Below are positions 4,861-61,831 of a stretch of 64,000 nucleotides of DNA, in pieces. This DNA is from Marsupella aquatica (taxonomy: Eukaryota > Plantae > Marchantiophyta). Position 1 is the stretch's first letter; every line of letters starts with the position of its first letter. The notes under the pieces are model-generated. The model did not search any database, was not told the DNA's origin, and saw only the letters and a list, made by a program, of their open reading frames with translations. The stretch spans positions 6,021,139-6,085,138 of the forward strand of contig OZ316893.1 in assembly GCA_973895155.1 (NCBI GenBank), written 5' to 3'. Made by a program: the position numbers and the translations under genes.

Positions 4861-5002
4861 CAACATTTCTTTCCAATCCACATGGATTTTGGTGGGCCCT
4901 ATAGTCATGGTATACAGGTTTCACTCTATAAGCCTAGACCCCAACTCTAGTTTCTCTTTGAGATTAATTATATATAATATACTAGCCCAATGCCCGTGCA
5001 CA

Positions 5003-5720
5003 AAAGATGTCAGGGTGAGAAAAAGATGTCATGGTGAGAAAAATATGTTGAGGAGAAAAAAATGTGGATGAGAGAAAAATATGTTGAAGTGAGGAAAAGA
5101 AGTTGATGTGAGAAAAGATGTTGAGGAGAGAAAAGGATGTTGAGGTGTTGAAAAGAAGTTGAATTGAGAAAAGCTGTCAAGGAAAGAAAAGATGGCAAGA
5201 TGAAAAAACGATGTATAGGTGAGAAAAAGAAAAGGTGTCAAGGGGAGGAAAGATCTCAAGGATGAGACAAAGATATATGTGAAAGTGGAAAAAAGATGGC
5301 AAGATGAGAAATAGATAACATGTCGAGGTGAGAAAGAAGTCAAGGTGAGAAAAGATATTGAGGAGAGAAAAGATGTCAAGGTGAGAAAAAGATGTCACGG
5401 TAAGAAAAAGATGTCAATGAAAGAAAAATGTAGAGACCTAGAAAATATGATAAGGCAAAGAAAAGATGTTGAGAAGAAAAATATATGTAAAGATTAGTAA
5501 AACATGTCAAGGCAAGAAAAGATATCACGATGACGCAAGAAATATATGTTTTGCAATGTAGTTGTTGAGACATTTTATCAATGTGTGATCCCGACCATAC
5601 AGTTGTTGTGGTCATGTTCAATACGTGTGCATTGCACATAATATGTTGCGTGAAAGATGTCATTGCATAAAAGATGTCCATGTCAAAAAGATGTTGCAAA
5701 ATTGATGAGAGATCAAGAGT
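5003..5720. repeat. Degenerate purine-rich minisatellite (~19-20-bp unit, gaaaaagatgtcaaggtga)
   Basis: Dozens of variants of AAAAGATGT followed by AAGGTGAG-like spacers. Confidence 0.9.
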
Positions 5721-6458: not shown

Positions 6459-6855
6459 AATAACTTGGAATATGCATCAGATTGCACGTTTTTTTACCAT
6501 CATTTGACGATTTATGTGCCCGGCAAGCCGTCAACTTGCCCATCAGGTTAAACATGGCTCCTTAGTCCCTGTTCCCTCACAAATGTGTCTCAACTGTACT
6601 CCTAATGTCAACACATGGCACTCACATACCTCATATCTCATATGCAATCATGCTCCCTCATAAGTGTGTCTCAAGTGGACTCATCCCAATATCAACACAT
6701 GGCACTCACATACTAATCATGCTCCTCCTAGAGAATCTTTGTGATATACCAAAATACCTTGTCTTGTGATTCATTTTTAGAAGTAAAGTGGACTCCAGTG
6801 ATTCTTGACCGGTAACTTGTAGAGCAAGCTCCCCTCTGGAATCAAAATAAGTTCT

Positions 6856-7199
6856 TGTTAGATATTGCTCTAGTCTTGTGACTCATGAGCTAACCACAGT
6901 TAGTCTAATTCGGGTTAGGACTTAGCTAATGTTAGCGGTAGTGTTGTTGTGCATATAGCCAGGGCTGATGCCAGACCCTGGAGGAACTTAGGCTCATTGT
7001 TACGGAGCTAGTTGAGAGATAGGGAGAGCTTGTGCTGTGGATGCTTGGTATGGTCGGTCGGCCTAGAGTGTAATAAAACTCTTATGTGTTCCCGTGGATG
7101 TAGCCTCATGTCGAGGTGAACCATGTATCTCTCTGTGCCGACTATTGTGCGTTGGATGGTTCATGGGCTTGCCATTACTAATGTCGTCTATGCTCAACA
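6856..7199 (+). repeat. Copia 5' LTR
   Basis: Direct repeat of 25839-26182 with about 13 mismatches by manual count; TG...CA ends. Confidence 0.97.
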
Positions 7200-7201
7200 A
7201 G

Positions 7202-7213
7202 TGGTATCAGAGC
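7202..7213 (+). promoter_or_regulatory. Copia primer-binding site (initiator tRNA-Met)
   Basis: TGGTATCAGAGC lies 2 nt after the 5' LTR. Confidence 0.95.
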
Positions 7214-7343
7214 ATGTGTAAACGATAAAAATTACACCGGCGATATTATAGTTTTTTTTTAGGTTTAGAAGTGTCAACTAGAGGTCAACCAAGAGTATTT
7301 AGGAAGTAGTAAGCAAGGACCAGCGGTTATTCATTTTGTGGAG

Positions 7344-7949
7344 ATGACAGAAAGGCTGGAAGTAGGGGAGGCAACGATCATCTCGATTAACGGTCGTGTA
7401 GGAGTCGAGTCCTGCTATGAAGGCTGCGATGGCCTACTAGCAGATGGCAGAGTATGTGCCTTAGGCACAAGAGCTCGACAAAGAAGGCAAGGGGGGGTGA
7501 ATATAGAAACCCCCGTTAGCAGGAATCGGTTAGCTCATGAGTGTAAGTCGCTAGGAGAAGGAGTGCCTATGTTCATGTTCACTATTCGGATCAAAGAAGG
7601 AAGCTGTCGTGTATGGGATGCGGCGGGGCAACAATTGTTCGGAATGAAGGGCGAAGAGTTCCGCCAACGATTCACCACCGGCGAGGCCATTGAAGAACTC
7701 TGTAGAAAGGTCATGCGGAAGAAATGGAATCTGCTGCTAAGACGGGATAACAGCCACGATCAGCGGATTACATGGCGATTAATCACCGCCGAACAAGTAA
7801 TCGTGGCCGGCGAACCGAGCAACCCCAAGGAAGATGACAGAAGTCAGGAGGTCGAGGCACATATGGCAAGATTAACAATCGGGAGTCCGGAAGCTTCCGG
7901 ATCAGGCGCAACCGAAGGGAATCGAGGAGGCCATTGCACAGTTCAGTAA
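7344..7949 (+). CDS. LTR-encoded protein resembling the RPA70 C-terminal OB-fold/Zn-ribbon domain (~200 aa)
   Basis: Motif order ATIISI...SCYEGC...C...HEC...PMFMFTIRI...RVWDAAGQQLFGMKGEEF...IEELCRKVMRKKWNLLLR...RITWRLITAEQV parallels RPA1 DBD-C. By-eye alignment only. Confidence 0.65.
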   Translation: MTERLEVGEATIISINGRVGVESCYEGCDGLLADGRVCALGTRARQRRQGGVNIETPVSRNRLAHECKSLGEGVPMFMFTIRIKEGSCRVWDAAGQQLFGMKGEEFRQRFTTGEAIEELCRKVMRKKWNLLLRRDNSHDQRITWRLITAEQVIVAGEPSNPKEDDRSQEVEAHMARLTIGSPEASGSGATEGNRGGHCTVQ

Positions 7950-8694
7950 CCAGGAAGACAGAACTTCTTGACATAGTAATCAGCAGTTCTTGGCTTCCAC
8001 TCATCGTTCTGGTAGGCATTAGTTAGCGTTCTTGATGAATGAGCGAGGAGATCAAAGAGGAGGCGCGAGTCGTCCAACTGTAATCGGCGCACCCCAAGAA
8101 GTAGTAGAGGCCTCGGGCAAAGACGGACACGAGGCATAGGTATTTAGAGGCTGTGGAGCGCTAGGCGCTCTGTCACTTTTTGCTAGAAGTCTGGGGCAAG
8201 GTAGGGCTCCGCTCACCTTAGGAATGCCAACAATTTTGTAATAGTGTCCCTACTCAGTTGAGTAGTCTTTGAGTATAAAGAGAGAGTTTGGAATGAATGC
8301 AACAGAGTGAAGTACGCACTTGAGCAGTGAATGAGACCGTCAAATCAGAGAGAGAGAGAGAGAGAAGGAATTTGCCTTATGCAGCAAGTCGTTACTCGTT
8401 AATTGCAACAATGAATGAATATTGTCTCATTGCGAACCAGAACCTTACGGGCCAACGCCTCAAGATATAGGTTGAACAGACAGCTAGTGAGAAGCGGTGT
8501 CTGGTTGGAGATAGTGTGTTTTGAAGGCGATACACTGGTCGTCATACACCTCCATCATACAAGGGTAAACGTGATACTGGGGTACTTGCTTAGGGTAACC
8601 CTGTCATAGTCACCCACACAATCCGGAAATCAATTGCCAAGCAGGCTGATTCAAAGGACAGTCGGACTTAATCAGGTCACGGCTACTAAAAACC

Positions 8695-9015
8695 ATGAAC
8701 GTAGACAGCAGTGACGACAAGTCTTGCTCCTTGATTACCTTAAGATCACTAGAACTGTGGATCTGTTCTATCGGCACCCATCTTATTTCCCGTCAGTTAC
8801 TATACGAGAACATTCCGATTTGCTTGATCACTTACCGCGAGTGGTGTGGGTTCATTGAGATTGTGTATAGAGAGGGGTTAGTGTTGGCCGAGGCTGAAGT
8901 GCCTAAGAAGTGGAAGACGGAACTCGACATTCAAGAGCACTTGGTCAGATTCACTTACGGGGACTGTGTCGAGATAGACGGAGTGCCGCCTCTCGAAGGT
9001 TGGTTAATCATTTAA
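8695..9015 (+). CDS. LTR-encoded 106-aa ORF of unknown function
   Basis: ATG-initiated, globular composition, open in both LTRs (second copy 20207-20527). Confidence 0.35.
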   Translation: MNVDSSDDKSCSLITLRSLELWICSIGTHLISRQLLYENIPICLITYREWCGFIEIVYREGLVLAEAEVPKKWKTELDIQEHLVRFTYGDCVEIDGVPPLEGWLII

Positions 9016-9085
9016 ACGAGATTACTGAGGAGAAGGTAGTTAAACGGCCATTAATCGCAAGGTCGAAGTAGGCGTTTAACATTTT

Positions 9086-9103
9086 TGGCAACCATACTGG
9101 GGA
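9086..9103 (+). promoter_or_regulatory. Gypsy primer-binding site (probably tRNA-Arg type)
   Basis: TGGCAACCATACTGGGGA 4 nt after the 5' LTR; resembles the TGGCGAC...CTGGGGA PBS of Tat/Ogre-type elements. Confidence 0.6.
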
Positions 9104-10003
9104 ACGCCTCGTTGAGGGTTCCGAAAGAGGAGCAACTACTACGACCAGCAGTCCGAACCAAGAGAGAAACGCGCAAATCCAGAAAGGCGAACGGGTGACA
9201 TAAACTCGCCGAAGGAGTTCTGGACGATGTTCTATTTTGAGAAGGATGCCGAAGCAGCAATCATAGCAACACTGAACGAGAAAGAGCACTCGATACTAGC
9301 CAGCGGGAGAAGTAGGGCACGAGAAGGCGATGTTATGATAATTGCTTACACCACGCCCACACACACAGAGTTGGTACTTCAAGAAGCGCATGGAGGAACC
9401 TGGAACGTGAGGAGGCGAGCAATTCATTTGCAATCCTCTGTTCGGAGCAGCGTTTACAGCAGCGACCATGCCACCAAGTGATCGATTACCTCAAGGCTAC
9501 ACGCAGTACCGCCTACCCAAGAGAAAGAAGGACCTTAGAAAACTCTTAGAATGGTGTCATTGGAATCGAAATGAGTACCCGGTTGCGATAGCATTCCAGA
9601 TAGGCAGAATCGCTAGGAAATTAAGTTCTAAACTAGAGGAAACCGCAAGAGCTTGCCCAAGATGTATGATGTGGAGTCAACATGACAGTTTTGAGTTTTC
9701 TATGTTAAACTAGTTATTAACGATGTGCTTTAACGAGGAACTCATGGCTCCAGAAGCCTGCACTCCTAGTTTAAGCGAATAGGAGTCATTTCACAGAGGG
9801 CATAGCCGCAGTTGAGCAAAGGAGAGAGAGGAACTGATTAACAGAAGTTATAGCATTAGACAAGTAAAGGAGACAGTAGAAGGTCTCCGTTTTGTGAAAA
9901 GTAACGAGTAATAAGATCTTGACATCACCCTTGTAAAGAAAGACCTGATCGTTGAGTATATTGCTTGAAGGCAGAGAAAAGGCTTTGCTAACCCAGAAGA
10001 TAA

Positions 10004-13000
10004 ATGGGCAAGACGCCCATCAATCCCAACGAAGGGGAAATGGCAGAGGAGTTCAAACCTTTCCAAGAAAGCAGACTCAGACTTGAGGTCGAAGAACGAA
10101 TCGAGACTTCAAGGGCTCAAGATAAGGTCAAAGAACCCTTGGAAGAAGCCATGGAACGACTTAAAACCCACCAAGGAGCTGGCATTAGTTCGAGATCGGC
10201 TCCTACCAGAAGGGTTAAAATACCCATGTTCAAGGGAGCACCTGATGAAGATGCCGATACCCACTTAGCATGTTTCGAAGAAATGCTCAGAGCTAACCAC
10301 GAACAGAACGACACAGCCCGATTAGAGCTGTTTCCCAGCTCACTGGACAAGGAGGCTTTTGTATGGTACACTCAATACCCAGCTGACCATTTCAAAACTT
10401 GGCCTGAGTTTTCAAAAGAATTCTTAGATCATTACAGAAGGGCTAAGGAAGAATCTGATTTGTATAGCATTCTGCAAAACATGACTCAGAAGAAAGGAGA
10501 ACCAGTACAGAACTATATTGGACGGTTAAAGGTAACAATGAGGCGATTAACTAACAAACCGTCCGACGGGCAACGAATTAGCTGGATGAGAAAGGCTGTG
10601 AAGGGAAGTCTAGTCACAGTGGTAGAACAAAATCCCACTTCTAATGCTGACGAATACGAGAAAAGATTAATACGGCTAGAAGGCATTACTCAAATGCTTA
10701 ACCAGGAAAAGAACGAGAGCAGTAAGGATGAAGAGAGGGTTAACCGGAAAACAGAACCTTCTAAGGTAGAAGTCAAGGAAAACCGAGAGCGAGGCGAGCT
10801 TAGTACTCGTAAATTCTGTGAAATACATATGAGGCCTGGACATACTACTCAGGAATGCAACCAGAATCCTTTTAAAAAGAAACCTAGCCTAGGTGTAAAT
10901 CAGGTAGGAACAAGCAAACAAGATGGGGATAGGATGGAGAGTAGTCAGGGATATTACAATCCGGATCGTAATGCAAACCGAAGGCCCTATAAGGATGGTG
11001 GTACTAAATACCCACCGATTTGCTATTACTGTCGACTAACTGGCCACATCAGGGGGCCCGATTGTGAATTATGGATGAAGCACATGAAAGAAAAAGAAGA
11101 AATAGCGGGGAAAGCCCCAGCACCTGTGAATACTGTGCAGGTGTCAACATACGTGGTGACAAGATCTCAAGGGCAGCCAGAGAACTCAACCCAAACCAAT
11201 TCCCCGGAGACGGAGGGGGGATTCGATTGGAGCCAAATGGATGCAACCACCCGAGAAATGGCGGATGAAATTCGCCACAAACAGCGGAACGAGACTTTGC
11301 CACGACCTAAACGATTAATGCGTTCAGAACCTTACGCAGAGACAGATACGGAAATTCTAGAGGAGGGAGTGACGATGGGGGGATTCGATCAAGAAACGGG
11401 ACAACTTCCACGAGACGAAGAACCACCAAATAACCCTGCCGAAGCAAACCAGCGAATAGTGGATAAGCTAGTACAACTCATCGCGAAGACCCGAGTCGAC
11501 ATCACTATCGAAGAACTGTTCCAGTTAGCACCACAGTGTAAGGAAGTAGTAATGAGACGGTTGGGGGGCAGAATTAGTCCTACCACATTACCCGGAGTAC
11601 CACTGTACCAAGCTGGGAAGATTCCCCTAATCGACAAAGGAGCCGTAGTACAGATCAGCGTAAGGGGCATCAAACTAAAGAACGTATTGCTGGATGGAGG
11701 GTCAGCTGTAAACCTCATGAGTGAGCAGACCTACAGACTGCTAGGCAGAGTCAAACTCTTACTAGCCCCTTTTAATTTAATAATGGCCGATCAAAGCAGC
11801 TGTCACCCACTGGGTTACGTGCCAGACTTACCAATGCTGATTTCAGGCATCAAGTACAATTTAGGAGTGGTAGTTTTGAGAGAAGCACATTCCACCCGAG
11901 GACAACCCATGTTGTTAGGACGACCTTGGCTAAGACAGGCCAAAGTAAAACAGCACTGGGGGGAAGAAAAAGATTATATAAAAATAGAACACGGAGGAGA
12001 GACTTTCAAGATCAGAACCAAGGCTATCGAGGACGGTGTACCACCTATGGCCAGAGTTTGTACCTTGAACTGGGCAGAGGGGTTGAATGAGGATGAAGAA
12101 GAGACCTATTTAAAATGCCGTCTAGACTTAGTCCCAATTTCAGATATGGAAATAGTCAAGCTCGACGAGATGCAAGGAATGACCAAAGAAAAAATGGATC
12201 ATGATCTATGAAACGATCTGTTTAAACACATAGACCCGCAAGGCATTCAGGAGTGCTCATTAAAGGAGGAAGAAGCACAGACCACCTTACAGGATCTAGC
12301 AGAAAAGGTGGTGGGATGGAGTGCCACCGAGGAAGAGCACATTCAGAAGGTTGATTTGAGTGACACTGAACGACCACGAGAAGTAAAGATAGGGAAACAC
12401 CTTTCCCCCGAGCTCAAAGAGGAACTTGTTACCCTACTCGCCGAATTCCAAGATGTTTTTGCCTGGGATTACACGGAGTTAAAGGGAGTTCCAGAGTCAA
12501 TTGGTGTACATCAAATCCGACTCGTACCAGGATCAGTACCGGTGCAGACACAACGATATAGGATGAACCCCAACTATGCAGAAAAGGTAAAAGAAGAAAT
12601 CCAAAGGCTCCTTGATGCCAAATTCATTGAACCTGTTAAGCGCTATACGTGGCTATCCCCGATAGTCGTAGTACCTAAGAAAAATGGGAAGTTAAGAGTC
12701 TGCATTGATTTCAGAAAATTAAACACAGCGACCATAAAAGACCCTTTTCCGGTACCCTTTCTAGAAGCAGTTCTGGATGTGGTAGCAGGAAAGTCAGCTT
12801 ATTCATTTTTAGATGGGTACAACGAGTACAGTCAGGTCCGGTTAGCCACAGAAGCAAGGGAGCTGACCACTTTCATTACGGAATGGGGCGCTTTCTAGTG
12901 TCTCGTATTACCCTTTGGATTATGCAATGGGCCTAGTACATTCCAGCGATTAATGATGATGTTATTTCATGAGTATTTGAATCAGTTTATGCAAATCTTC

Positions 13001-16000
13001 CTAGATGACTTCACCATATACGGAGAGGAAGAGAAACATATAGGTCATCTCAGATTATGCCTCTTAAGATGTAGGGAAGGGGGAGTCAGCCTGAACCCTG
13101 ATAAGTGCACCTTCTTTGTACCGTCGGGAAAGATATTAGGACACATAGTTTGTAAACAGGGCTTGTTAGTAGACCCAGATAAGATAAAAATCATTAAAGA
13201 GATGCCAGTCCCCAATAGTGCAACTCAAGTCAGAAGGTTCCTGGGAAGTGGAGGTTTCTATCGTCGTTACATCAAGAGTTACTCCCAAATCAGTGCCCCA
13301 TTGGCACGATTAACGGGTAACCATCAAACGTTCACTTGAGACGACGACTGTCAGAAAGCGTTTGAAGAAATCAAGGACCGGTTGTGCCATGCACCCATAC
13401 TCAAGGAGCCAGATTGGAAGAGGGAGTTCCATCTACATACAGATGCTTCTTTGGTGGCGGTGGGAGCAGTGTTAGCACAGAAGGGAGAACAAGGTATCGA
13501 TTTACCAGTATACTATGCCAGTAGACTGTTAAACGTGCATGAAAGGAACTACACCACGACTGAGAGGGAAGCATTAGCCATGATATTTGCAGTAAAGAAA
13601 TTTAGGCATTATTTACTTGGGAATCGATTCATATTCTATGTAGATCATAACGCCTTGGTCAACTTAGTAAACAAACCACAGCTGTCGGGCCGAATTGCAA
13701 GATGGATTTTGTTATTAGCTGAGTTTGATTACACCATCATTTATAAACCCGGGAAAACCCATGTCATACCCGATTATTTGAGTAGACTCGAATCAGGAGA
13801 GACAGGCAAGGAAGAAGACGATCAATTACCGGATATGGAGCTATTTCAAGACGCCAAGGAAAGGCATCCTGTAAATCTAGTGACCTTGGATGACGAACCA
13901 GCATTAGAAAGGTATTTACGCACAACGATATTCCCCGAGGGGTTGTCCAGTAAGGAAAGGAAGGTCTACACCTATAAGGCAAGACCCTACACCTTGATCA
14001 ACCATGTGCTTTATTACCAGGGGCCCGATGACATACTACGTAGAGTAGTTCCGGAGGAAGAACGGACAGAAGCCTTAATCGCGGCACATGAAGGACTAGG
14101 AGGGGGACATTTCGGCACCGAGATCACCCTGAGGAAGATTCTTCAGCAAGGACATTGGTGGGCAACTGTCCATAAAGACACTCGGGAGTTTGTAAAAATG
14201 TGCAACCTGTGTCAGCGTACAGGACCTATAAAGGAAAACATGGAGTTCAGGCCTATAATCGCCCCTTATATTTTTCAGAAATGGGGACTAGATTTCATAG
14301 GACCCATCACTCCATTTTCCAGATATAGTCAGAACCAGTATATTTTAGCAGCAACAGAGTATACCACAAAATGGGTGGAAGCAGTCGCAACTCGGGAGAA
14401 CACTGCCCGAGTAACAGCCAAGTTCTTGTACCAGAACATCATCACGAGATACGGATTACCAGGTGAGCTAGTGAGCGATCAAGGTTCACATTTTCTGAAC
14501 AAGGTTATCCAGGAACTGACGGATAATTACCATATAAGCCATCGGTTTTCGACTCCCTATTACCCTCAGTGTAACGGGCAAGCGGAGTCAACAAACAAAG
14601 TCTTACTCAACGTTTTACGGAAAGTGGTTAACGAACAGCAAAACGATTGGGATGTTCAGCTGCCGGCGGCAGTATGGGCATTCCGCATGGCATATAAGGT
14701 AACCACGGGCCACACCCCTTTTCAATTAATGTTTGGAGTTGAGGCCCGTATGCCAACAGACTACGAATTACCTAGTTTGCAAATCGCAGCAAGATACAAC
14801 ATAAATCAGAACCCGTGTTTAACTAGACGGTTAAAAGCACTATTGGAGGTTACCAAAACCCGGAGAAGGGCCGAAGAACGATTAGAGTATGTACAAGGAC
14901 AACGCAAGCGACGAATAGACGATCAACGGGAGGTAACCACGTTCACGGAGGGGGAATTAGTACTGTGGTGCCGAAAGCGGGCACGAATAAAAAAAGGAAA
15001 GTTGAGACTTAAATGGGAAGGACCCTTTACTGTCCTCAAGGCATGGGGAAACGGAACCTTCAAAATTACCAGCCAGGATGGGAGCGAGCAACAGCGGGTG
15101 AACGGGAATAAGATGAAGTCGTACCACGTAAGGAACGACGTGTACTTACAAGAAGTAGAGGATACGGTTAACGACTACCCAGGGGAAAGCGAAGTCGGCA
15201 ACGACTCTGATACGGTACCGGCGCTCAACGAGGACGACGACAGCTATCAACTGCCGACAGCACCACCTAACGAGAATCAAGCGGATGGAGAAGGGTACGA
15301 GCTACCCATTAAAATGGTAGCTTGTATCGGCGTGACCCCCGATCAAGCATCTACGGAAGCCACCGGAGGGGCACTCACCGCCAAGAACAAGGAACGACCC
15401 TTAGCACACGCAAAGAAGCTAGTCGCGACCACCACACGTGACACACTACGACGAGAAGAAAGCACCAATGAACAAGGACGAGAACTAACGGTCAAGGGGT
15501 ACCCGTTAGAGGATTACGTGAACGGAACCATTCCATCAAACGAACCAACGGAATCAGGTCAAATCAAGTCAGTGGTTCTAGCGGAGGAGGACCTATCTGA
15601 AATCTTTCAGATCCACGATTGGAAGCACAAATTACCCAAAGGCCAGGAAGAGAGGAGGAGAAGGTTTCCTTATAGAGTAGTAATCGTAGGATGTACACAC
15701 GGACCCTTTTCCACATGGATTTCAGATTGGATTTTGATAGGACCCAACTCGATACCCTGTATTGAGGACTACTCCACGGGAAAATTACATGTTATACTAG
15801 AAGTTCAGGATACACTAGAATCCAAAGGGCGAACACCATCATCCGCAAAAGAACTGTTAAACCAAAAACCCTATTTCCGACTGGCAAGGAGATTACGAGA
15901 GAACCCCGAGTGGAGTGGCTATCAGAGCGAGGTGAAATTCGAATGGTCGAGGGTCGGTAATAGGCATTACACATTACCGGTGGGCATGAAGACTTTGAAG

Positions 16001-18652
16001 CTGAAACGATCAAACGAGTTTGAGGACGATAAACCGAGGAAGCGCGTTACTATCAGCAAACTACTCGAAACCCCAGCGATGGAGGAGACACCAGCCCCCA
16101 CGCACACAGAGGGAGAAGGGCCGACAACAACAGAGGGCATGGAGCTGGAAGTTTCCGAGTCAGCGGAAAGGGAAAGGAGCAACCCCGAAGATGATCAAGA
16201 GATCGTGAGTCAGGGACCTTCAGCGGCTGACCATCTCTCGGAAACTACAGCCAAAAGGGAAGGGCAGGGGCCCGCCGAGGAGCCAACCCTAGAGACACAA
16301 ACCAAATCAGTAATCGAGGCACCAACGGAGCAAGCGGCCGAGCAGACAGAAGAACAACAGGGAAACCAGCTGAACGAACTTCAACGAGAAGGGAGACGGA
16401 AGCTGACCATGGCAGAATTGTTAGCCAACCCGGATCCCACGGAAGCGATCACGGCGGTCACCACAGCGATAATTGAGGAAACGACACCTTCTAGGACCAA
16501 GAGGAACCGCAAGGGGACAGCCAAAACGATTAAACTTGAGCCGCCAACGATGAGGGAGGTGCAATCCGTAAGGGGAAAGAGCAAAATAGTCGAATACGAG
16601 GAGGAAGAACTGGAAGAATCCGACAGTGAGGAAGAAGAAGAACCAGCAGAAGAAGCAAAAAGTAGGACCGGGAAGGCGACGCGCGCCGCAAAGGCGAGTC
16701 TAGGGGAAACAAGTCATGTTTTGAAATTTGAGAGAATGGGGCCACAGATATTGCAAACTATGCGCGGACAAGCACACAGGAAATTTCTACAGACACAAGG
16801 ATTGGAGAAATTCGTGAAACTAAAGTGGAATCAAACCACGAAGCTACAAGCAGAGGACTACAGCGAGTTCATCACCACGTGGAAACCCACCGAAAATCAG
16901 GGAATATGTAGGGGCCAAGTCATTAAGACGAATCCTCGGAAGCTTCAGGAGCTTTTCAAACTGCCAAAGCAAGGAGCGGAGATCAAGAAATGGATGGGGA
17001 AAACTTGGCAACCTGCCACATTTCCACAACACAAGGACATAGACGACAACAGGGGCTATCCGACCAAGCATTGCATGAATGAGAAAATCAAGGAAAGGCT
17101 CGAATTCGTAACCCATGCATTACATTGGAAGAGGCCCAGATCAGAATATCCTCGATTTATGATTAAAATTGTAGAGGAGGGAGACGGGAAGCAAAAGGAT
17201 TGGTTGGCCTTTTTCCACGAAGGGTTTCATGCAGCCATCAAGCGAGCTAAACGATTAATCAACAGTAAAAGCAACCTGCCAGTAGAGATCGAGTCGCATC
17301 TCCAAGTGCTAATCGAGAGTCAGCTTACAGGGGAAGACAGGGAAAAAATGGAATCAGCAGCTACCATTTACCAACCAACGAGGAGTGAGGGAGCCAAGAA
17401 GCAGGAGGGCACCCTGCCAGAAGAGGAAGCAGCCAACAAAGAGCAAGAGGGGGACGCATCACCAGTGCGCACCACCAGGAGGAAAGAAACCAATCCAACA
17501 CCGACCAAGAAGGAGTCAGAATCAGAGGGTCAGGAACCAGCGGAGGAAGACAAAATGCGAGCAGAAACCAAGGCTTATAGGACAGCGCCCATTGATGACG
17601 ACGACCTCAAGTACGCCCTCTCAACCGTAAAAGAAGGTGATGAACAACAATTACGGGAGAAGCTGGGGATCGAAGTATTGAAAGAGAAGATCAGCACAGT
17701 GCAAAAAGATAGCATCTTTATAGTCATGATCGGACAAATCGCTAGTCAATTAGCCATTTATCAGGGAATAACGAGTTCGCTAGTACACTTGGAGTGGAAC
17801 AAGCAAGAAGAAGAAATCGCCGAGGACTTAGCCGGGAAGGAGGAGGCAGATAAATGGGCAATGGAGGCCGAGGAGACCATCAAGGAGTTACTAAATCGTA
17901 ACAAAGAGCTAATAGCAGATAAGGATCGACTGACAACCATAGGAAGAGGCTGGAGGCATGAGGAGGCGGCCACGCAGGAATTGGCTGATTACCTAGGGAT
18001 AGAAGGGTAACGTCCAGGGGGACTAACGACAAATTACCAGGAGGTTGTCACGGCCATCGGAGCAGCCATAGCCACAGTCAAAGCAGATAGCCAAAAGATC
18101 AATTCACAGCTAAGGGAGGATAACGAGAAACTCAAAGAAATAGAAGAATTGCAATCGCAACTCAAGGATGAAGCACCAAAGCAACGCAGAACAACCGGGG
18201 AATGGGCAGTGGAACGCTAGAGGGTGGAGGAATTGAAGAAAAAGCTCCAGGGTCTGGAAACCCAACTCCAGCAAACCACCGCAGTCAAAGGGGACCCCAC
18301 GGAGGATCTGAACAAACAAGCCCTACTGGAGGAGCAACTGGGGAAGCTCAGACGAAAACACTATGAAGTATCGGAGAGTTGGAGAATCACAGAAGATGAC
18401 TATAAGCGGAAAATTGCTGAGTTAGAAGCCACTGTGAAGCTACAGGGCACTGGAGAGGAGAGTATCACTGAACAGACCAAGGAACTCGAGCAGTTGAGGA
18501 CAGAGAACGATCAGCTTTCGCAAGAACTGGAAGATAAGGAACGATCAATTTTGGATTTAAAATCCGAAGTGAGGAAGCTGAAGGCACAGAGTAGAGTTCC
18601 GATAACTCCAACCAGGACGACCAATGTTAGCGAGGGTAGGGGAGTGAAGTAG
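10004..18652 (+). pseudogene. gag-pol: Gypsy gag-PR-RT-RNaseH-INT polyprotein plus long C-terminal extension; one frame broken by five in-frame stops
   Basis: ORFs starting at 10004, 12308, 12953, 13382 and 18224 share one frame. Motifs: Zn knuckles CEIHMRPGHTTQEC and CYYCRLTGHIRGPDC, PR LLDGGS, RT IFLDDF, RNase H TDAS/EREALA/VDH/DYLSR, INT HHCC plus WGLDF/SDQG/QAES, then WEGPF. Confidence 0.93.
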
Positions 18653-18710
18653 ACCAGTGACGACTTGTCCCCAACGTATACCAAGCATAACGGATATCGA
18701 GGATGAATCC

Positions 18711-18729
18711 GTAGGTAAGCAAAGGAGAA
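18711..18729 (+). promoter_or_regulatory. Gypsy polypurine tract
   Basis: Purine-rich gtaggtaagcaaaggagaa immediately 5' of the 3' LTR. Confidence 0.65.
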
Positions 18730-20593
18730 TGTAAACGATAAAAATTACACCGGCGATATTATAGTTTTTTTTTAGGTTTAGAAGTGTCAACTAGAGGTCA
18801 ACCAAGAGTATTTAGGAAGTAGTAAGCAAGGACTAGCGGTTATTCATTTTGTGGAGATGATAGAAAGGCTGGAAGTAGGGGAGGCGACGATCATCTCGAT
18901 TAACGGTCATGTAGGAATCAAGTTCTGCTATGAAGGCTGCGATGGCCTACTAGCAGATGGCAGAGTATGTGCCTTAGGCACAAGAGCTCGACAGAGAAGG
19001 CAAGGGGGGGCGAATATAGGAACCCCCGTTAGCAGGAATCGATTAGCTCATGAGTGTAAGTCGCTAGGAGAAGGAGTGCCTATGTTCATGTTCACTATTC
19101 GGATCAAAGAAGGAAGCTGTCGTGTATGGGATGCGGCGGGGCAACAATTGTTCGGAATGAAGGGCGAAGAGTTCCGCCAACGATTCACCACTGGCGAGGC
19201 CATCGAAGAACTCTGTAGAAAAGTCATGCGGAAGAAATGGAATCTGTTGCTAAGACAGGATAACAGCCACGATCAGCGGATTACGTGGTGATTAATCACC
19301 GCCAAACAAGTAATCATGGCCGGCGAACTGAGCAACCCCAAGGAAGATGACAGAAGTCAGGAGGTCGAGGCACATATGGCAAGATTAACAATCGGGAGTC
19401 CGAAAGCTTCCGGATCAGGCGCAACCGAAGGGAATCGAGGAGGCCGTTGCACAGTTCAGTAACCAGGAAGACAGAACTTCTTGACATAGTAATCAGCAGT
19501 TCTTGGCTTCCACTCATCGTTCTGGTAGGCATTAGTTAGCGTTCTTGATGAATGAGCGAAGGAGATCAAAGAGGAGGTGCGAGTCGTCCAACTGTAATCG
19601 GCGCACCCCAAGAAGTAGTAGAGGCCTCGGGCAAAGACGGACGCGAGGCATAGGTATTTAGAGGCTGTGGAGCGCTAGGCGCTCTGTCACTTTTTGCTAG
19701 AAGTCTGGGGCAAGGTAGGGCTCCGCTCACCTTAGGAATGCCAACAATTTTGTAATAGTGTCCCTACTCAGTTGAGTAGTCTTTGAGTATAAAGAGAGAG
19801 TTTGGAATGAATGCAACAGAGTGAAGTACACACTTGAGCAGTGAATGAGACTGTCAAATCAGAGAGAGAGAGAGAGAAGGAATTTGCCTTATGCAGCAAG
19901 TCGTTACTCGTTAATCGCAACGATGAATGAATATCGTCTCATTGCGAACCAGAACCTTACAGGCCAACGCCTCAAGGTATAGGTTGAACAGACAGCTAGT
20001 GAGAAGTGGTGTCTGGTTGGAGATAGTGTGTTTTGAAGGCGATACACTGGTCGTCATACACCTCCATCATACAAGGGTAAACATGATACTGGGGTACTTG
20101 CTTAGGGTAACCCTGTCATAGTCACCCACACAATCCGGAAATCAATTGCCAGGCAGGCTGATTCAAAGGACAGTCGGACTTAATCAGGTCACAGCTACTA
20201 AAAACCATGAACGCAGACAGCAGTGACGACAAGTCTTGCTCCTTGATTACCTTAAGATCACTGGAACTGTGGATCTGTTCTATCGGCACCCATCTTATTT
20301 CCCGTCAGTTACTATACGAGAACATTCCGATTTGCTTGATCACTTACCGCGAGTGGTGTGGGTTCATTGAGATTGTGTATAGAGAGGGGTTAGTGTTGGC
20401 CGAGGCTGAAGTGCCTAAGAAGTGGAAGACGGAACTCGACATTCAAGAGCACTTGGTCAGATTCACTTATGGGGACTGTGTCGAGATAGATGGAGTGCCG
20501 CCTCTCGAAGGTCGGTTAATCGTTTAAACGAGATTACTGAGGAGAAGGTAGTTAAACGGCCATTAATCGCAAGGTCGAAGTAGGCGTTTAACA
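18730..20593 (+). repeat. Gypsy 3' LTR (1864 bp)
   Basis: Direct repeat of 7217-9081 with about 42 substitutions plus two small indels by manual count. Confidence 0.97.
18857..19462 (+). pseudogene. 3' LTR copy of the RPA-C-like ORF, truncated by CGA>TGA at 19289
   Basis: Matches 7344-7949; TGG CGA in the 5' copy is TGG TGA here. Confidence 0.65.
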
Positions 20594-21349
20594 GCATGTC
20601 TGGGAGGTGACGAGGTTTTTTGTGACAGGTTTTTCCAGCGTTCATTGTCGATGGTACATTCATAGTTTTATCGCATGAAACTCGAATGTGTGTGGCTGAG
20701 CGGGTAGGTTAGTGAGAGGGCTTTCTAACGGTGGTTAGAACTCGCTGATCGGTATCCTTGGTGCGGAGGAATCAAAGCTTGTGTTGTTCAGGTTTTATTC
20801 GTGTTCGACGGGTTTTCGAGGAAGAGACCAGAGTTCACATTTTTCAATGGTGTGAGCTGTGTGGTGCGAGAGGGATCGCACATTATAACTCAAGTTGAAC
20901 GTTGAAGCGAGCTGGTCGTTTCGGTAGCTGGATTGTTGTCGAGTTGTTATCAAGTGCGTCATGACGAGTGAAGGAGGCGTTCAGGTCTTTTCACAAGCTA
21001 TGGAGCTTGTTCACATCTGAACCGGGTTTCCCTTCGTGACTTATGACTTAGTGGAAGAAACGCAAAGTGCTATGGCTCAACAGATTGATCACCGCGAGGC
21101 GATCATTTTGAGCCCGGGATTGGCACTTTACGCAGAGTGAAGACGCTGCGGAAATTATTTACTCTGCTGGAGCTACAGACTGTGCCGGTAAAATTCGGAA
21201 ACTTTTTCCGTCGGCGGCGTTCACTTTCTTCATTAGAAACAACGGCTGATTAGTATTGGACTCCTAGCTTCATGGGCTACGCGGCGGTGTTGAGTTTTGA
21301 GTTTTATGAGAAGTTTCGAAAAAAAAACGTTTTTTCGTGATTGTTTCAT

Positions 21350-24300
21350 ATGAGTGACTCGGGGGATATTGGAAGAATTGGCGTCGGTGGAGCTTCAGGA
21401 TCGCGATGGTCAGACGGTGAGTCTGAGGAGGAGCTACTACCATTTGAGGAGGAACTTGTAACACCGGTACGATCACCGGTGCGGGGTGCAGTGGAGGAAG
21501 TTGTACTACTACCAGAGCTGTCGATAGTAGGGAAGAAGAGGGAGATGGCTAGATTCGGAGGAGTGAAGTTTGAGGTGGAGAAGTACGATGGTTGTACTGA
21601 TTACTTGCTCTGGGAGAAGCAAGTGAAGGGTGTTCTACGGACCATGGGCTTAGCTCATCTGCTCTCTTCGCGAGAGCAGTATGATGGAGAGGAGGAGATT
21701 TTTGTGAGACAGTGGAGACAGGAGCAGGTGATTGCTGTCAACGCAGTGATGCTATATCTCAAGCCGCACATCATCAAGCAGCTGGATGATTATGCGGATT
21801 GTGCGTCACTGTTCAAGGCTCTAAGAGAGAAGTACTACCGGGAAGATGCGTCAGACCGGCTGTACAAGAAGTCTCTCTTGATGAGCCTCAGGCTCAAGGA
21901 AGGGAGCAAAATGCAGGATCACCTGGATGAGTTTGATAGTCTAGCAGTGGATCTATCAAACCTGGGGAAAGGAGTTGAAGATGAGGATAAGGCCTTGCTT
22001 CTGCTAAGCTCCTTACCGCCATCATATCAGGGCTTGAAACAGGTGCTCTTGTATAGAGATCTGAAGTCCATTTCATATAATGAGGTGGTGAACTCTTTAC
22101 TGTCTGATGATGCTCAGAAGAAGCTGGGTCAATCACAGACAGCATCTTCTTCTGGTATTGCGCTCAATGTGAACAGGGGAAGAGCAGCGCAGCGCACGAA
22201 TGGGCAGAACAGGTTTAGATCTACATCACGAGGGAGATCTAAATCCAGAGGGAAATTGCAAGCTAGAGAGGAAGCCTCTTGCATGTTGGAACTGTGGCAA
22301 GCCTAGCCACATGAAAAGGGATTGTCGAGTAAAGGTCCCTACTGCCTCTACTAACGCGGCATTGAGCTCGCATGAGGTAGATTTACTCGATGATGATGAC
22401 ATATTGTGATGTCAAGGTTATGCTCTCAATGTAGTGTCAAATCCAGGTAGTGATGACTGGATTCTAGATAGTGCATGTACTTTTCATATTTGCTCTAGGA
22501 GAGATTTTTTCAGTTCTTACACGGTTTCCAACGGGTCAGTGTTGATGGGAAATGGAATCCCATGTCAAGTTGTTGGACTTGGATCTGTAAGATTTCAGAT
22601 GTTTGATGGTGTTGTGAGAACGGTGAGGAATGTGAGACATATTCCCAGCATGATGAAATATTTCATTTCACTTAGAATTTTAGAAGCAAATGGCCATCAG
22701 TGGAGTTCTGCTAATGGTGTCCTTCAGGTTTCAACTGGTACTAAAGTTGTATTGAAGGGAAAGAGACATTGCAATCTATACGTTTTGGAGGGTAGTGTAG
22801 TCTGTGATGAAGCCAATGTAACCTTATCTCATGAGGAGACGGCCCAACTGTGGCACTTCCGTTTGGGTCACATGAGTGAAAAAGGTTTGGTTATTCTTCA
22901 GAAGAAAGGATTACTTTCTAATTTGCAATCTTGTAAGTTGGAATTTTGTGAGCACTGTGTGCTAGGGAAGCAGCACAGGAAACCCTTTGCAGTTGGAACT
23001 CACACCAGCAAGGAGGTACTTGAGTATAAACATAGTGATGTGTGGGGTCCAGCCCCTACTCCCTCACATTCTGGACGGTTATACTATGTCACGTTCATAG
23101 ACAATTACTCAAGGTATGTGTGGATATACTTTCTACACAATAAGTCTGATGTTTTGCCACTTTTAAGGAGTGGAAAGCCCAAGTTGAGAATCAGACTGGT
23201 AACAAGGTGAGATATCTTTGATCGGATAACGGCGGTGAATACAGTTTCAAGGAATTTGGAACGTATGGTAAGGAGCAGGGGATTACCCGCCATCTCACAA
23301 CAAGTTATACTCCTCAGCAGAATGGTGTCTCTGAGAGACTCAACCAAACACTATTGGACCGCTCGAGGAGTATGTTGAGTCAATCATGCTTACCACATGA
23401 GTTTTGGGCTGAAGGTGTCAACACTGCAGCTTATTTGGTAAATTTTTCTCCATCTAGTTCTATTGGATTCAAGACGCCATTTGAAATGAGATACGGGCGT
23501 CCAGCAGATTACTCACATCTGAGAATTTTTGGATGTGATGCTTATGTGCTTACACCTTCCCAACTTCAATCCAAGCTGGAGTCCAAGTCGAAGAAGTGCA
23601 TTTTCCTTGGCTATCAGAAAGGTGTGAAGGGTTATAGGTTATGGGATCCAGTAACCTGTAAACTAATTGTCAGTAGAGATGTGTCCTTTAATGAATCCAG
23701 ATCATCAAAGGAGGGGGAGAGTTCTCAAGACTCCCATACTGACAACTGAAGGGGAAATCTCCCATCCCGAACCGGGTTGAGGGGGAGATTAGTCATGATG
23801 TTGTTCATGACAGGAGAGATGGAGAAGCTTTGGGCTTGGAGCTGGTTCCTGTGATGGAACAAGAGGAGCAGATTGTTGCTGGGTACCTCAAATTCAACCA
23901 GCAGCAGCAACAGATCAGCTTGAGTCATCTACTAGAAGAACTTCCAGTCGTTCTACTAGAGCTCCTACCAGGTATGGTCAATGGGAAAACTCATCTAAGC
24001 TAGATGATATTGACATTGCACCTGATGAAGATGATATGGCTTTGATCTTGGAAGAAGGAGAGTCTTCTTCGTACAGTGAGGCTTGTGCTTCAGAGCAGAA
24101 GCATGAGTGGAATGCAGCAATGCAGAGAGAGTTGCAATCTTTGAGTGACAACAAGACATGGGAGCTGGTGGAGCTTCCAAGAGGTCAGCAAGTGGTGGAC
24201 AGCAAGTGGATTTACAAGTTGAAGGACAATCTTTCAGAGGGTGGAGACAAGATCTACAAGGCAAGGCTTGTTGCCAAGGAATTCACTCAGGAGAAAGGAG

Positions 24301-25631
24301 TGGATTACAATGAGGTCTTTTCACCGGTGGCTAAGTATTCCACAATTTGGATCTTGTGTCAGCTTGTTGTGTTTTTTGGTCTGGTGATGGATCAGATGGA
24401 TGTTGTTACTGCCTTTCTCTATGGCAACTTGGAAGAGTTGATCTTCATGAGATAGCCACTAGGCTTTATGAAGAAGGGCCAAGAGAACTTAGTTTGCAGA
24501 TTGCTCAAGTCCTTGTATGGATTGAAGCAGTCTCCCAGATAGTGGAACAAGCGGTTTGATGATTTCATGCTTGCTCAAGGTTTTACAAGGATGGTGTATG
24601 ATCCTTGTGTGTATATGAAATCAGTCAAGAATGATGTGTTTGGTTTCATCATTCTGGTTATTTATGTGGATGACATGCTGATTGTGGCTAAAGATCAATC
24701 TGAGGTTGATAGTCTCAAGGCAAAATTGAGTGTTGAATTCAGGATGAAGGATCTTGGTAAGGCCAAGAAGATCTTAGGCATGGAAATTTTTAGGAACTCT
24801 GAGACTGGACAGTTGTGCTTGAGTCAAGGCCAATATGCGAGGAAAGTACTTGCACGATTCAACATGGAGAACTGTAAGCCAGTGAGTATTCCTTTAGCTT
24901 CACATTTCAAGTTATCATCGGCTTTCTCTCCTACGGATGCTGTGGAGAAAGGTCTAATGGCTAAGATTCCTTATGAGAAGGCAGTAGGCAGTCTGATGTA
25001 CTTGATGACTTGTACTAGGCCTGACTTGGCCCTAGCGATGGGCAAGGTTAGCAGATTCATGTCAAATCCAGGGAAGGTACATTGGGAAGTTGTGAAATGG
25101 ATTCTCAGGTATCTCAAAAGTACACAGGACTATGGATTACTATTTGATAACAGATCAGATAGAACGTTAGTTGGCTATGTGGATTCTGACTATGGAGGCT
25201 GTCTGGATACAAGGAGGTCTACAACTGGGTTTGTATACACTCTTGGAGGAGGATGTATCAATTGGAAATTTACCTTGCAGAAGTGCATTTCTCAGTCTAC
25301 TACAGAAGCAGAGTATGTTGCAGCAACAGAAGCAACAAAGGAAGCAATTTGGTTGGATAAGTTGATTGCGGAGATGGGTTTAGAGCATGGCAAAATGACT
25401 CTAAACTGTGATAGTCAGAGTGCTCTTCACTTGGCTGCTAACCAGGTGATGGATAGCAGGGTGAAGCACATTGATATCAGGTACCATTTTATCAGGCAAG
25501 CAGTGTCTGATAAAACTTTTGAGCTAGTCAAGATTGATGGAAAGCTCAATCCCGCTGATGCCTTTACCAAAGTGATTCCTTTGGAGAGTTTCTCAAGACA
25601 CCGTGCTACTTTGCAAGTTTTGCAGTTGTAG
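21350..25631 (+). pseudogene. gag-pol: Copia gag-pol, disrupted by frameshifts and stops
   Basis: gag VEKYDG..YLLWEKQV and DKALLLLSSLPPSY, Zn knuckle CWNCGKPSHMKRDC, PR WILDSAC, INT LWHFRLGH/CEHC/HSDVWG, RT YKARLVAK/QMDVVTAFL/IYVDDM, RNase H YVDSD/EAEY/CDSQSA/NPADAFTK. Confidence 0.95.
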
Positions 25632-25838
25632 TACAAGTAGAGTTATTTAGCAATGTGTGACTATTTGTATATGGATTACTCATTCTTGTTTGGCTACGGC
25701 TTAGTTCTAGTTAACCCTTAGTTAACCCTTGTGGTTTTTAGGGGGAGACCTGGTTTGGTGATTGTCTAGAACTTCCCACTGAGGATTTCATATGGTAGCA
25801 TTTAGTCCAGTCCCCAAGACAAGAGTCAAGGGGGAGTT

Positions 25839-26182
25839 TGTTAGATATTGCTCTAGTCTTGTGACTCATGAGCTAACCACAATTAGTCTAATTCGAGTTA
25901 GGACTTAGCTAATGTTAGCGGTAGTGTTGTTGTGCATATAGCTAGGGCTGATGCCAGACCCTGGAGGAACTTAGGCTCATTGTTACGGAGCTAGTTGAGA
26001 GATAGGGAGAGCTTGTGCTGTGGATGTTTGGTATGGCCGGTCGGCCTAGAGTGCAATAAAGCTTTTATGTGTTCCCGTGGACGTAGCCTCATGTGGAGGT
26101 GAACCACGTATCTCTCTGTGCCGACTATTGTGCGTTGGATGGTTCATGGGCTTGCCGTTACGAATGTCGTCTATGCTCAACA
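25839..26182 (+). repeat. Copia 3' LTR
   Basis: Preceded by the PPT and followed by TSD GTTCT. Confidence 0.97.
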
Positions 26183-61249: not shown

Positions 61250-61831
61250 CAGCTTTTTATCAACCTGTCCCCCTAACTTGTTGAAATTATTCCTAAGCTA
61301 TCCCCCAAATGATTTTATTTACTTCCCTGCCTCCAATTCTGTATTTCGAATAATATTTTCTCATCTTTGGGGTTCTGGATGCCAGGTGGCAAGGCATCAT
61401 TGGCCCGGATGTTTCTGGCCAAGTACTGCTTCTCCCTGCCCGACTGCTGCTTGCCCCCTCCCCGCCGCGGCCCGTTTTGATGGAACGGGCTTTGCTTCAG
61501 ACCCGGGAGGAGGCCAACCCCCCCCCCCACACACACAAACCTCCGCTCCCCCTAAGCCCTTGTGAACCCCGGACCTCCGCTCCCCCTAAAACCTCCCGAA
61601 GCCCTGACCTCCCATCGCAGCCCGAGTACACAGGAGAACGCAGCATTGAGCCCCGTTTTTACAAAGGAAAAAAAGTGCAGGCCAATGATGCCTTGCCACC
61701 TGGCATCCAGAACCCCAAAATGAGAGAATGCTATTCCATATATGGAATGGGGGGCAGGGAAGTAAATAAAATGGTTTGTGGGACAGCTTACAAATTTCAA
61801 CAAGTTAGGGGGACAGGTTGATAAAAAGCTG
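61250..61831. mobile_element. Mutator-like MITE (582 bp) with ~155-bp TIRs
   Basis: cagctttttatcaacctgtccccctaacttgttgaaatt...ggcatcattggcc is inverted at 61680-61831; 10-bp TSD TAAATTGATA (61240-61249, 61832-61841). Confidence 0.88.

What the first reader, a model, noticed from the sequence alone, without database searches (positions are those of the whole stretch)
15130..18652. Integrase fused in frame to a ~1150-aa tail with a plant-mobile-domain-like segment and coiled coil
Seen: the frame stays open after the integrase C-terminus (WEGPF...RVNGNKMKSY). It continues through a globular-looking block (~15590-15985), an acidic/basic low-complexity linker, a helical block (~16715-17325) and a long E/K/L/Q heptad-rich region. 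The only breaks are TAA (18008) and TAG (18218), each one transition from CAA/CAG. Inference: EFITTWKPTENQGICRGQVIKTNPRKLQELFKLPKQG...KDWLAFF resembles the PMD / plant transposon extra-ORF pattern (W.P.T.....G...T...V..LLGLP..G). Such domains normally occur as separate 3' ORFs in gypsy elements and relate to MAIN/MAIL1. The ancestral product would be a single ~2880-aa polyprotein.
Basis: partly seen in the sequence, partly recalled or inferred. Interest (0 to 1): 0.72.

Follow-up and report, generated by a model that had tools for sequence, protein, structure and literature searches.

The report
Retrotransposon integrase fused to VANC-like domain
A plant jumping gene reads straight on from its integrase into about 1,170 extra codons whose core is predicted to fold like the DNA-binding anti-silencing protein VANC21, and the element is enriched for one short DNA word, so it likely carries its own defence against host silencing inside its main protein.

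Summary
Observation confirmed. A complete Ty3/gypsy LTR retrotransposon (7217-20593) has one frame of 2,882 codons, and about 1,170 of them follow the integrase. Contigs from two other runs bridge the junction with no stop or indel, and the two tail stops are absent in other copies, so the fusion is a family trait. Three more stops in pol were not checked in other copies.

The helical block (16715-17326) matches no Pfam family but has 25 relatives (7 named, all liverwort). It folds confidently (pLDDT 92.5), and its best match among 48,161 solved chains is VANC21 bound to DNA (Z 7.9, next 2.4).

New here: CGATTA is the most enriched hexamer of the element, and a motif found at two other domain junctions recurs just after the integrase. 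Best reading: a protease-released, VANC-like self-protection protein made inside Gag-Pol; binding, cleavage and anti-silencing are untested. Block 15590-15985 stays unexplained.

The parts
7217..9081 (+). 5' LTR (TG...CA), 1,865 bp
   Evidence: 42 transitions, 0 transversions against the 3' LTR, K2P 0.023
7212..7216 (+). 5-bp target site duplication, left copy (right copy 20594-20598); insertion lies in the PBS region of a Ty1/copia element
9086..9103 (+). putative primer binding site (TGG-starting); tRNA not identified
   Evidence: position read from sequence
10004..15127 (+). gag (two zinc knuckles), protease, RT, RNase H with all four catalytic acids, integrase (HHCC, D,D-35-E, SH3 end); stops at 12209, 12896, 13337 in this copy
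15305..15319 (+). P-[VI]-[NK]-x-[VI] motif, found elsewhere only at 11123 (after the gag knuckles) and 13868 (RNase H/integrase junction): candidate protease site; overlaps an in-frame ATG (15314) in strong context
   Evidence: pattern defined after seeing the sites
15590..15985 (+). block A: 132 codons, globular by composition, no relative or fold found
15986..16714 (+). acidic/basic low-complexity linker with basic clusters (16004, 16499) and an in-frame ATG at 16409 in strong context
   Evidence: the start of relative P0022 aligns with 16409
16715..17326 (+). block B: basic (37 K+R, 23 D+E of 204), predicted VANC21/DUF1985/PMD-type fold
17831..18649 (+). predicted coiled coil; broken by stops at 18008 and 18218 in this copy only
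18730..20593 (+). 3' LTR, starting 77 bp after the terminal stop
7217..20593 (.). 27 dispersed CGATTA/TAATCG sites (21 counting one LTR); 8 LTR columns carry it in at least one LTR

Best explanation
This Ty3/gypsy family encodes, in the same frame as its integrase, an accessory protein whose core is predicted to have the VANC21 fold and which likely binds the element's own dispersed CGATTA sites to hold off host silencing. Shown: the open frame in this and other copies, a conserved domain family, motif enrichment. Predicted: the fold and the coiled coil. Inferred: the polyprotein is cut by the element's protease near 15305, freeing an integrase of ordinary length and a roughly 1,110-aa protein; being made in Gag-Pol, it would be packaged and reach the nucleus with the new cDNA, oligomerise through the coiled coil, and oppose DNA methylation or Polycomb marks on new and old copies.
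For: Fusion in other copies: 40 differences over 14960-18240 in 2 runs of 2 studies, none of the 39 classified gives a stop, the 40th lies in the 18008 stop, no indels. Fold: AlphaFold pLDDT 92.5, pTM 0.87 with 25 rows; best of 48,161 chains is 9lnk_A, VANC21 with target DNA, Z 7.9, rmsd 4.2, 197 of 213 residues, next Z 2.4. ESM Atlas lists Transposase_32, DUF1985 and PMD clusters at 0.81-0.82. VANC-PMD structural kinship and a VANC21 coiled coil are reported (PMC13547354; bioRxiv 2024.09.27.615353). Motif: CGATTA ranks 1 of 2,080 hexamers, 15 vs 6.0 expected in the ORF and 6 vs 1.1 in LTR plus 5'UTR, 0 of 400 shuffles reach its z; 27 sites in 13.4 kb against 7 in the other 50.6 kb. CpG o/e is 0.70-0.89 in the element against 0.49 in the host copia and 0.58-0.59 in the flanks. 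The junction motif occurs 3 times, all at domain borders, 0.2 expected.
Against: Z 7.9 is within the range the tool calls middling, identity is 11%, and Foldseek found nothing at E<=0.001. No Pfam or PDB sequence hit; Atlas scores under 0.9 are leads only. No link between protein and motif was tested. In the ORF alone the motif ranks third (z 4.4, null maximum 4.0) and in the tail alone it is not enriched (z 1.9). VANC targets are tandem repeats in non-coding DNA (PMC5735166); here no motif tops the shuffles in non-coding DNA alone and the sites are dispersed. 28 of 42 LTR differences are at CpG and 9 at CHG, and 4 of the 8 LTR motif columns have lost the CpG in one LTR, so this copy was likely methylated after insertion. 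The looser pattern P[VI]..[VI] is not significant (86 of 1,000 shuffles). 0 of 25 relatives carry an integrase domain as predicted.
Confidence: 0.42

Rival explanations
1. The accessory protein is in practice a separate ORF, translated from an internal ATG (15314 or 16409) on a spliced or subgenomic RNA. The join to pol is a tolerated loss of the pol stop and has no function of its own.
For: The 62-codon spacer before ATG 15314 is stop-free in 581 of 10,000 shuffles. Both ATGs have strong context. Relatives are predicted as stand-alone proteins, many starting 64-117 residues before the block; P0022 starts at the place of ATG 16409; several relatives have a different N-terminal domain. Extra ORFs of plant gypsy elements are usually separate (PMC6317226).
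Against: Other copies in two studies keep the frame open, so any full-length RNA must make the fusion. A junction-type motif sits at the border. Starts of relatives are gene predictions, and their contigs could not be fetched.
Confidence: 0.25
2. The tail stays on the integrase and steers integration, as chromodomains do in chromoviruses: block B would tether the intasome to CGATTA-rich DNA or to particular chromatin.
For: Position directly after the integrase SH3 end; basic surface and DNA-binding-type fold; this copy sits inside another retrotransposon.
Against: The target copia has 0 CGATTA sites in 5.6 kb and the left flank 0 in 6.9 kb. A candidate cut site follows the integrase. A 1,170-aa extension is far longer than a chromodomain tail (recalled).
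Confidence: 0.15
3. Block B has the PMD/VANC fold but acts on host genes or partners, or on the element's RNA; CGATTA is enriched for another reason, such as a host transcription factor site or mutational bias.
For: PMD proteins act at gene promoters in Arabidopsis and direct DNA binding by them is not shown. The motif resembles homeodomain and GARP cores (recalled, untested). Control pieces of the window reach top z 4.8-5.4 with other hexamers.
Against: The gypsy top z is 8.8 in the same test, and the motif is enriched in coding and non-coding parts separately.
Confidence: 0.15
4. The tail is an env-like or structural protein.
For: 3' position and coiled coil as in env-like ORFs (PMC7264820).
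Against: No transmembrane stretch (best 19-residue hydropathy 1.57); no viral fold match.
Confidence: 0.03

Closest known systems
VANC21 anti-silencing protein of Arabidopsis VANDAL (Mutator-like) DNA transposons; PDB 9lnk; DUF1985
   Same: Predicted fold of block B; a coiled coil in the same protein (predicted here; reported for VANC21 in PMC13547354 passages); a short motif enriched in the element that encodes it (PMC5735166 passages).
   Different: LTR retrotransposon, not a DNA transposon; relatives named from a liverwort, while VANC is described as dicot-specific; in frame with Pol, not a separate gene; motif dispersed and partly in coding DNA, not in tandem repeats; 11% identity; activity untested.
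PMD-A plant mobile domain in extra ORFs of Ogre/Tat gypsy elements; host PMD-C proteins MAIN, MAIL1, MAIL2 (PF10536)
   Same: Accessory domain of a gypsy element with a related predicted fold.
   Different: No Pfam match; about 200 aa; described from angiosperms and as separate extra ORFs. Neumann et al. note that some extra ORFs are part of the polyprotein in some elements and removed those from their analysis.
Athila-type 3' extra ORFs (Transposase_32 PF20167, Athila ORF-1 PF03078)
   Same: Sense 3' position, helical domain plus coiled coil; Atlas lead 0.82 for Transposase_32.
   Different: No Pfam hit; fused to Pol; no transmembrane segment.
Tat Z1/Z2 elements of liverworts (no additional RNase H)
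   Same: No chromodomain or additional RNase H by Pfam, native RNase H acids intact, as described for Z1/Z2 (PMC10508981; PMC13468544).
   Different: No RT tree could be built, so placement is untested; those texts, as far as read, describe no post-integrase tail for them.

Membership tests
Ty3/gypsy LTR retrotransposon | LTRs with TG...CA, 5-bp TSD, order gag-PR-RT-RH-INT | tested here: met
Non-chromovirus OTA / Tat Z | RT-RH-INT phylogeny | not testable with these tools
   no reference sequences held
Tat with additional RNase H after integrase (TatIII type) | archaeal-type RNase H domain and degraded native RNase H | tested here: not met
   no RNase H match in the tail; native catalytic acids intact. 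A dead RNase H-like fold for block A is not excluded (model unusable)
PMD (PF10536) | Pfam profile match | tested here: not met
   E<=10; 0 of 25 relatives at E<=0.05
Transposase_32 / DUF1985 / Athila ORF-1 | Pfam profile match | tested here: not met
PMD / DUF1985 / Transposase_32 | profile-profile (HHpred) similarity | not testable with these tools
   no family profiles or member sequences held; Atlas features 0.81-0.82 only
VANC/PMD fold | structural match over the whole domain | tested here: met
   Z 7.9, rmsd 4.2, 197 of 213 aligned, next Z 2.4; predicted model, not confirmed by Foldseek
VANC-type anti-silencing system | short motif enriched in the encoding element | tested here: met
   weaker in sub-regions
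VANC-type anti-silencing system | [quoted passage not shown] | tested here: not met
   sites dispersed, no tandem array in 7217-20593
VANC-type anti-silencing system | sequence-specific binding and loss of DNA methylation | not testable with these tools
   needs EMSA/DAP-seq and methylomes
VANC-type anti-silencing system | encoded by a Mutator-like DNA transposon | tested here: not met
   LTR retrotransposon
env-like ORF | transmembrane segment | tested here: not met

The most novel reading that the evidence does not exclude
An LTR retrotransposon of a seed-free plant carries a complete VANC-type, sequence-specific anti-silencing system: a VANC-fold protein built into the Gag-Pol polyprotein, delivered with the integrase so that each new copy is shielded from the moment it inserts, and a cognate CG-containing motif written through LTRs and coding sequence. 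The fold would then be an ancient gypsy accessory domain, older than the eudicot VANC and angiosperm MAIN proteins.
Probability: 0.3. Interest if true: 0.88.

Novelty: new variant of a known kind. Interest (0 to 1): 0.7.

Why it matters
What the extra ORFs of plant gypsy elements do is an open question (PMC6317226, PMC7264820), as is whether the plant mobile domain began in transposons or in hosts (PMC5418596). This element offers a testable pair, a well-folding 200-aa domain and one candidate target word, in a lineage far from Arabidopsis. If the domain binds the word and lifts silencing, sequence-specific anti-silencing extends from eudicot DNA transposons to retrotransposons and seed-free plants, and the fusion shows a way to deliver it with the integration complex.

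Tried and rejected
No genome held for the window, so no copies could be compared directly. Word-index protein searches found no fused full-length relative: 0 hits among 7,983 candidates of 855-2,723 aa, 0 among 2,360 of 1,303-3,720 aa, 4 among 3,843 short ones; these blanks are weak. DNA around relatives was not found, so fusion in other families is untested. Block A: single-sequence model pLDDT 34 (not searched further), no Pfam, NCBIfam, PDB or Atlas hit, 0 of 25 library hits cover it, unrelated to the N-terminal domain of four relatives (the forced alignment is no evidence). The idea that it is an extra RNase H found no support. Foldseek PDB and viral: no match at E<=0.001; VIA on Foldseek's list: 0 of 62 at Z>=2. 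No RNA holder listed. The differences between this copy and other copies are 13 synonymous of 39, the neutral expectation (0.32), so they say nothing on selection. No tandem motif array. Motif spacing is only slightly more even than random (183 of 5,000). A pairwise check of P0022 against the linker printed nothing; that alignment rests alone. The complex predictor was not used. Tanaka 2026 (VANC21 structure) and Sasaki 2022 are not held, so VANC21's DNA contacts could not be mapped onto block B. No supplements were read; those of PMC6317226 and PMC10508981 may list such fused elements.
Full report
Element. The finding lies in a complete LTR retrotransposon at 7217-20593, with 1,865-bp LTRs (TG...CA), a 5-bp target duplication, and LTR divergence K2P 0.023 (42 transitions, 0 transversions). 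It is nested in the primer-binding region of an older Ty1/copia element (LTRs 6855-7200 and 25838-26182, K2P 0.039). Domain order gag, protease, RT, RNase H, integrase makes it Ty3/gypsy. One frame runs from ATG 10004 to a stop at 18650, 2,882 codons, with stops at 12209, 12896, 13337, 18008 and 18218. No chromodomain or second RNase H was found by Pfam, and the native RNase H keeps its four acids. That fits the description of liverwort Tat Z elements (PMC10508981, parts 1-2 of 3 read; PMC13468544 passages), but no tree was possible. The host is not identified.

Observation. After the integrase SH3 end (about 15127) the frame has 2 stops in 1,175 codons, against 38-73 in the other five frames. 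Each stretch is open beyond shuffles: integrase end to block A 10 of 5,000, block A 1, the next linker 22 and 76, block B 0. The last 270 residues score as coiled coil by a crude heptad score and weak Pfam hits. No transmembrane stretch was found.

Is the fusion a family trait? Four runs from two studies hold 57-66% of the sampled words and their contigs cover all 30 bins of 9000-18800. Over 14960-18240, runs X1 and X2 show 40 differences from this copy and no indels; single contigs bridge the junction (X1 15063-16595, X2 14879-15328). Of 39 differences classified, 26 are non-synonymous, 13 synonymous and 0 give a stop; the 40th lies in the 18008 stop. The 18218 stop is absent in 4 of 4 runs. 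So both tail stops are decay of this copy, and other copies are open from integrase to at least 18240. The table showed 40 of 288 rows, so the three RT-region stops could not be checked. The 1.2% private divergence agrees with half the LTR divergence.

Block B. A search of 1.84 billion representatives with 15560-17339 gave 25 hits, all on block B or the linker just before it, none on block A. All 25 were looked up; 7 carry an organism name, each the liverwort Calypogeia fissa. Twenty positions are conserved in at least 70% of the 15 near-complete rows. Neither the block nor the relatives match PMD, Transposase_32, DUF1985 or Athila ORF-1 in Pfam. The ESM Atlas gave unnamed streptophyte clusters at 0.85-0.86 and Transposase_32, DUF1985 and PMD clusters at 0.81-0.82, leads only. 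With the 25-row alignment AlphaFold2 gave pLDDT 92.5. Foldseek found nothing at E<=0.001 in PDB or BFVD. VIA-align against 48,161 chains put VANC21 in complex with its target DNA first (9lnk_A, Z 7.9, rmsd 4.2, 197 of 213 residues, 11% identity); only 7 chains reached Z 2 and the second scored 2.4. The tool warns that Z under 8 can be a common arrangement. VANC and MAIN/PMD are reported as structural homologs (PMC13547354 passages; bioRxiv 2024.09.27.615353 passages).

A candidate target word. VANC proteins bind short motifs enriched in their own transposon (PMC5735166 passages), so I looked for one. In non-coding DNA alone nothing tops the shuffles. Over ORF plus LTR and 5'UTR, with synonymous and dinucleotide shuffles, CGATTA ranks first of 2,080 hexamers (15 vs 6.0 and 6 vs 1.1; 0 of 400 shuffles reach its z with any hexamer). 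By dinucleotide shuffle it has z 8.8, against top values of 4.8-5.4 in three control pieces of the window. There are 27 sites in the element, 0 in the copia interior and 7 in the remaining window. Eight LTR columns carry it in at least one LTR. Against: in the ORF alone it is third (z 4.4), in the tail alone z 1.9, sites are dispersed and not tandem, and LTR differences are mostly at CpG and CHG, which suggests this copy was methylated. The element is less CpG-depleted than its neighbours, which youth could also explain. I found the motif before reading the scan's notes on motif-rich fungal elements; those notes are unchecked and are no support.

Processing. P-[VI]-[NK]-x-[VI] occurs three times in 2,882 residues: after the gag knuckles, between RNase H and integrase, and 60 residues after the integrase end (0.2 expected). 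That such motifs mark protease sites is recalled and inferred, and the pattern was set after seeing the sites. In-frame ATGs in strong context at 15314 and 16409 keep an internal start open, and relatives are predicted as separate proteins without integrase.

Mechanism. Shown: frame, family-wide junction, conserved domain, motif enrichment. Predicted: VANC-type fold, coiled coil. Inferred: cleavage after integrase, packaging and nuclear delivery with the cDNA, binding to CGATTA, opposition to silencing. I put the fold at about 0.85, the family-wide integrase-tail fusion at about 0.9 and the full chain at about 0.4.

Known and new. PMD-A domains in separate extra ORFs of angiosperm gypsy elements are known (PMC5418596 passages; PMC6317226 passages; PMC9289625 passages; PMC7264820 part 1 of 3), and Neumann et al. 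mention extra ORFs joined to the polyprotein in some elements. I found no report of a VANC/PMD-fold domain fused to integrase, of one in a liverwort element, or of a cognate motif in a plant retrotransposon, in the listings of eight searches and further passages (PMC12859917; PMC13317346). Steinbauerova 2011 was not read, and Sasaki 2022 and Tanaka 2026 are not held. Verdict: real, a new variant of a known kind, interest 0.7.

Noticed in passing
window 7269-7949 (+) and 18782-19462 (+): A 226-codon open frame lies inside the U3 part of the LTR (ATG at codon 26; one stop in the 3' LTR copy); 0 of 1,000 shuffles of the LTR give a frame this long. It recalls the RPA70 C-terminal OB fold (from memory), but Pfam, NCBIfam and PDB sequence searches gave no such hit. 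It may be a second accessory gene.
   Followed up: partly
window 6855-26182: Ty1/copia element split at its primer-binding region by the gypsy insertion; LTR K2P 0.039; several stops and frameshifts.
   Followed up: partly
proteins P0011/P0027, P0023, P0035, P0044: Relatives of block B share a different unnamed N-terminal domain of about 110-130 aa and mostly end in a coiled coil; some recur on several 2.6-4.8 kb Logan contigs and could be host genes or transcripts.
   Followed up: partly
window 1952-3106 (-): UDP-glycosyltransferase fragment (Pfam UDPGT E 1e-23) with an in-frame stop between two open stretches.
   Followed up: no
window 47801-49094 (-): RT and zf-RVT pieces of a probable LINE.
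   Followed up: no
window 4983-5527: Degenerate 17-19 bp tandem repeat.
   Followed up: no
window 61289-61795: 83-nt inverted repeat arms, 80% complementary, 341 nt apart; possibly a MITE.
   Followed up: no
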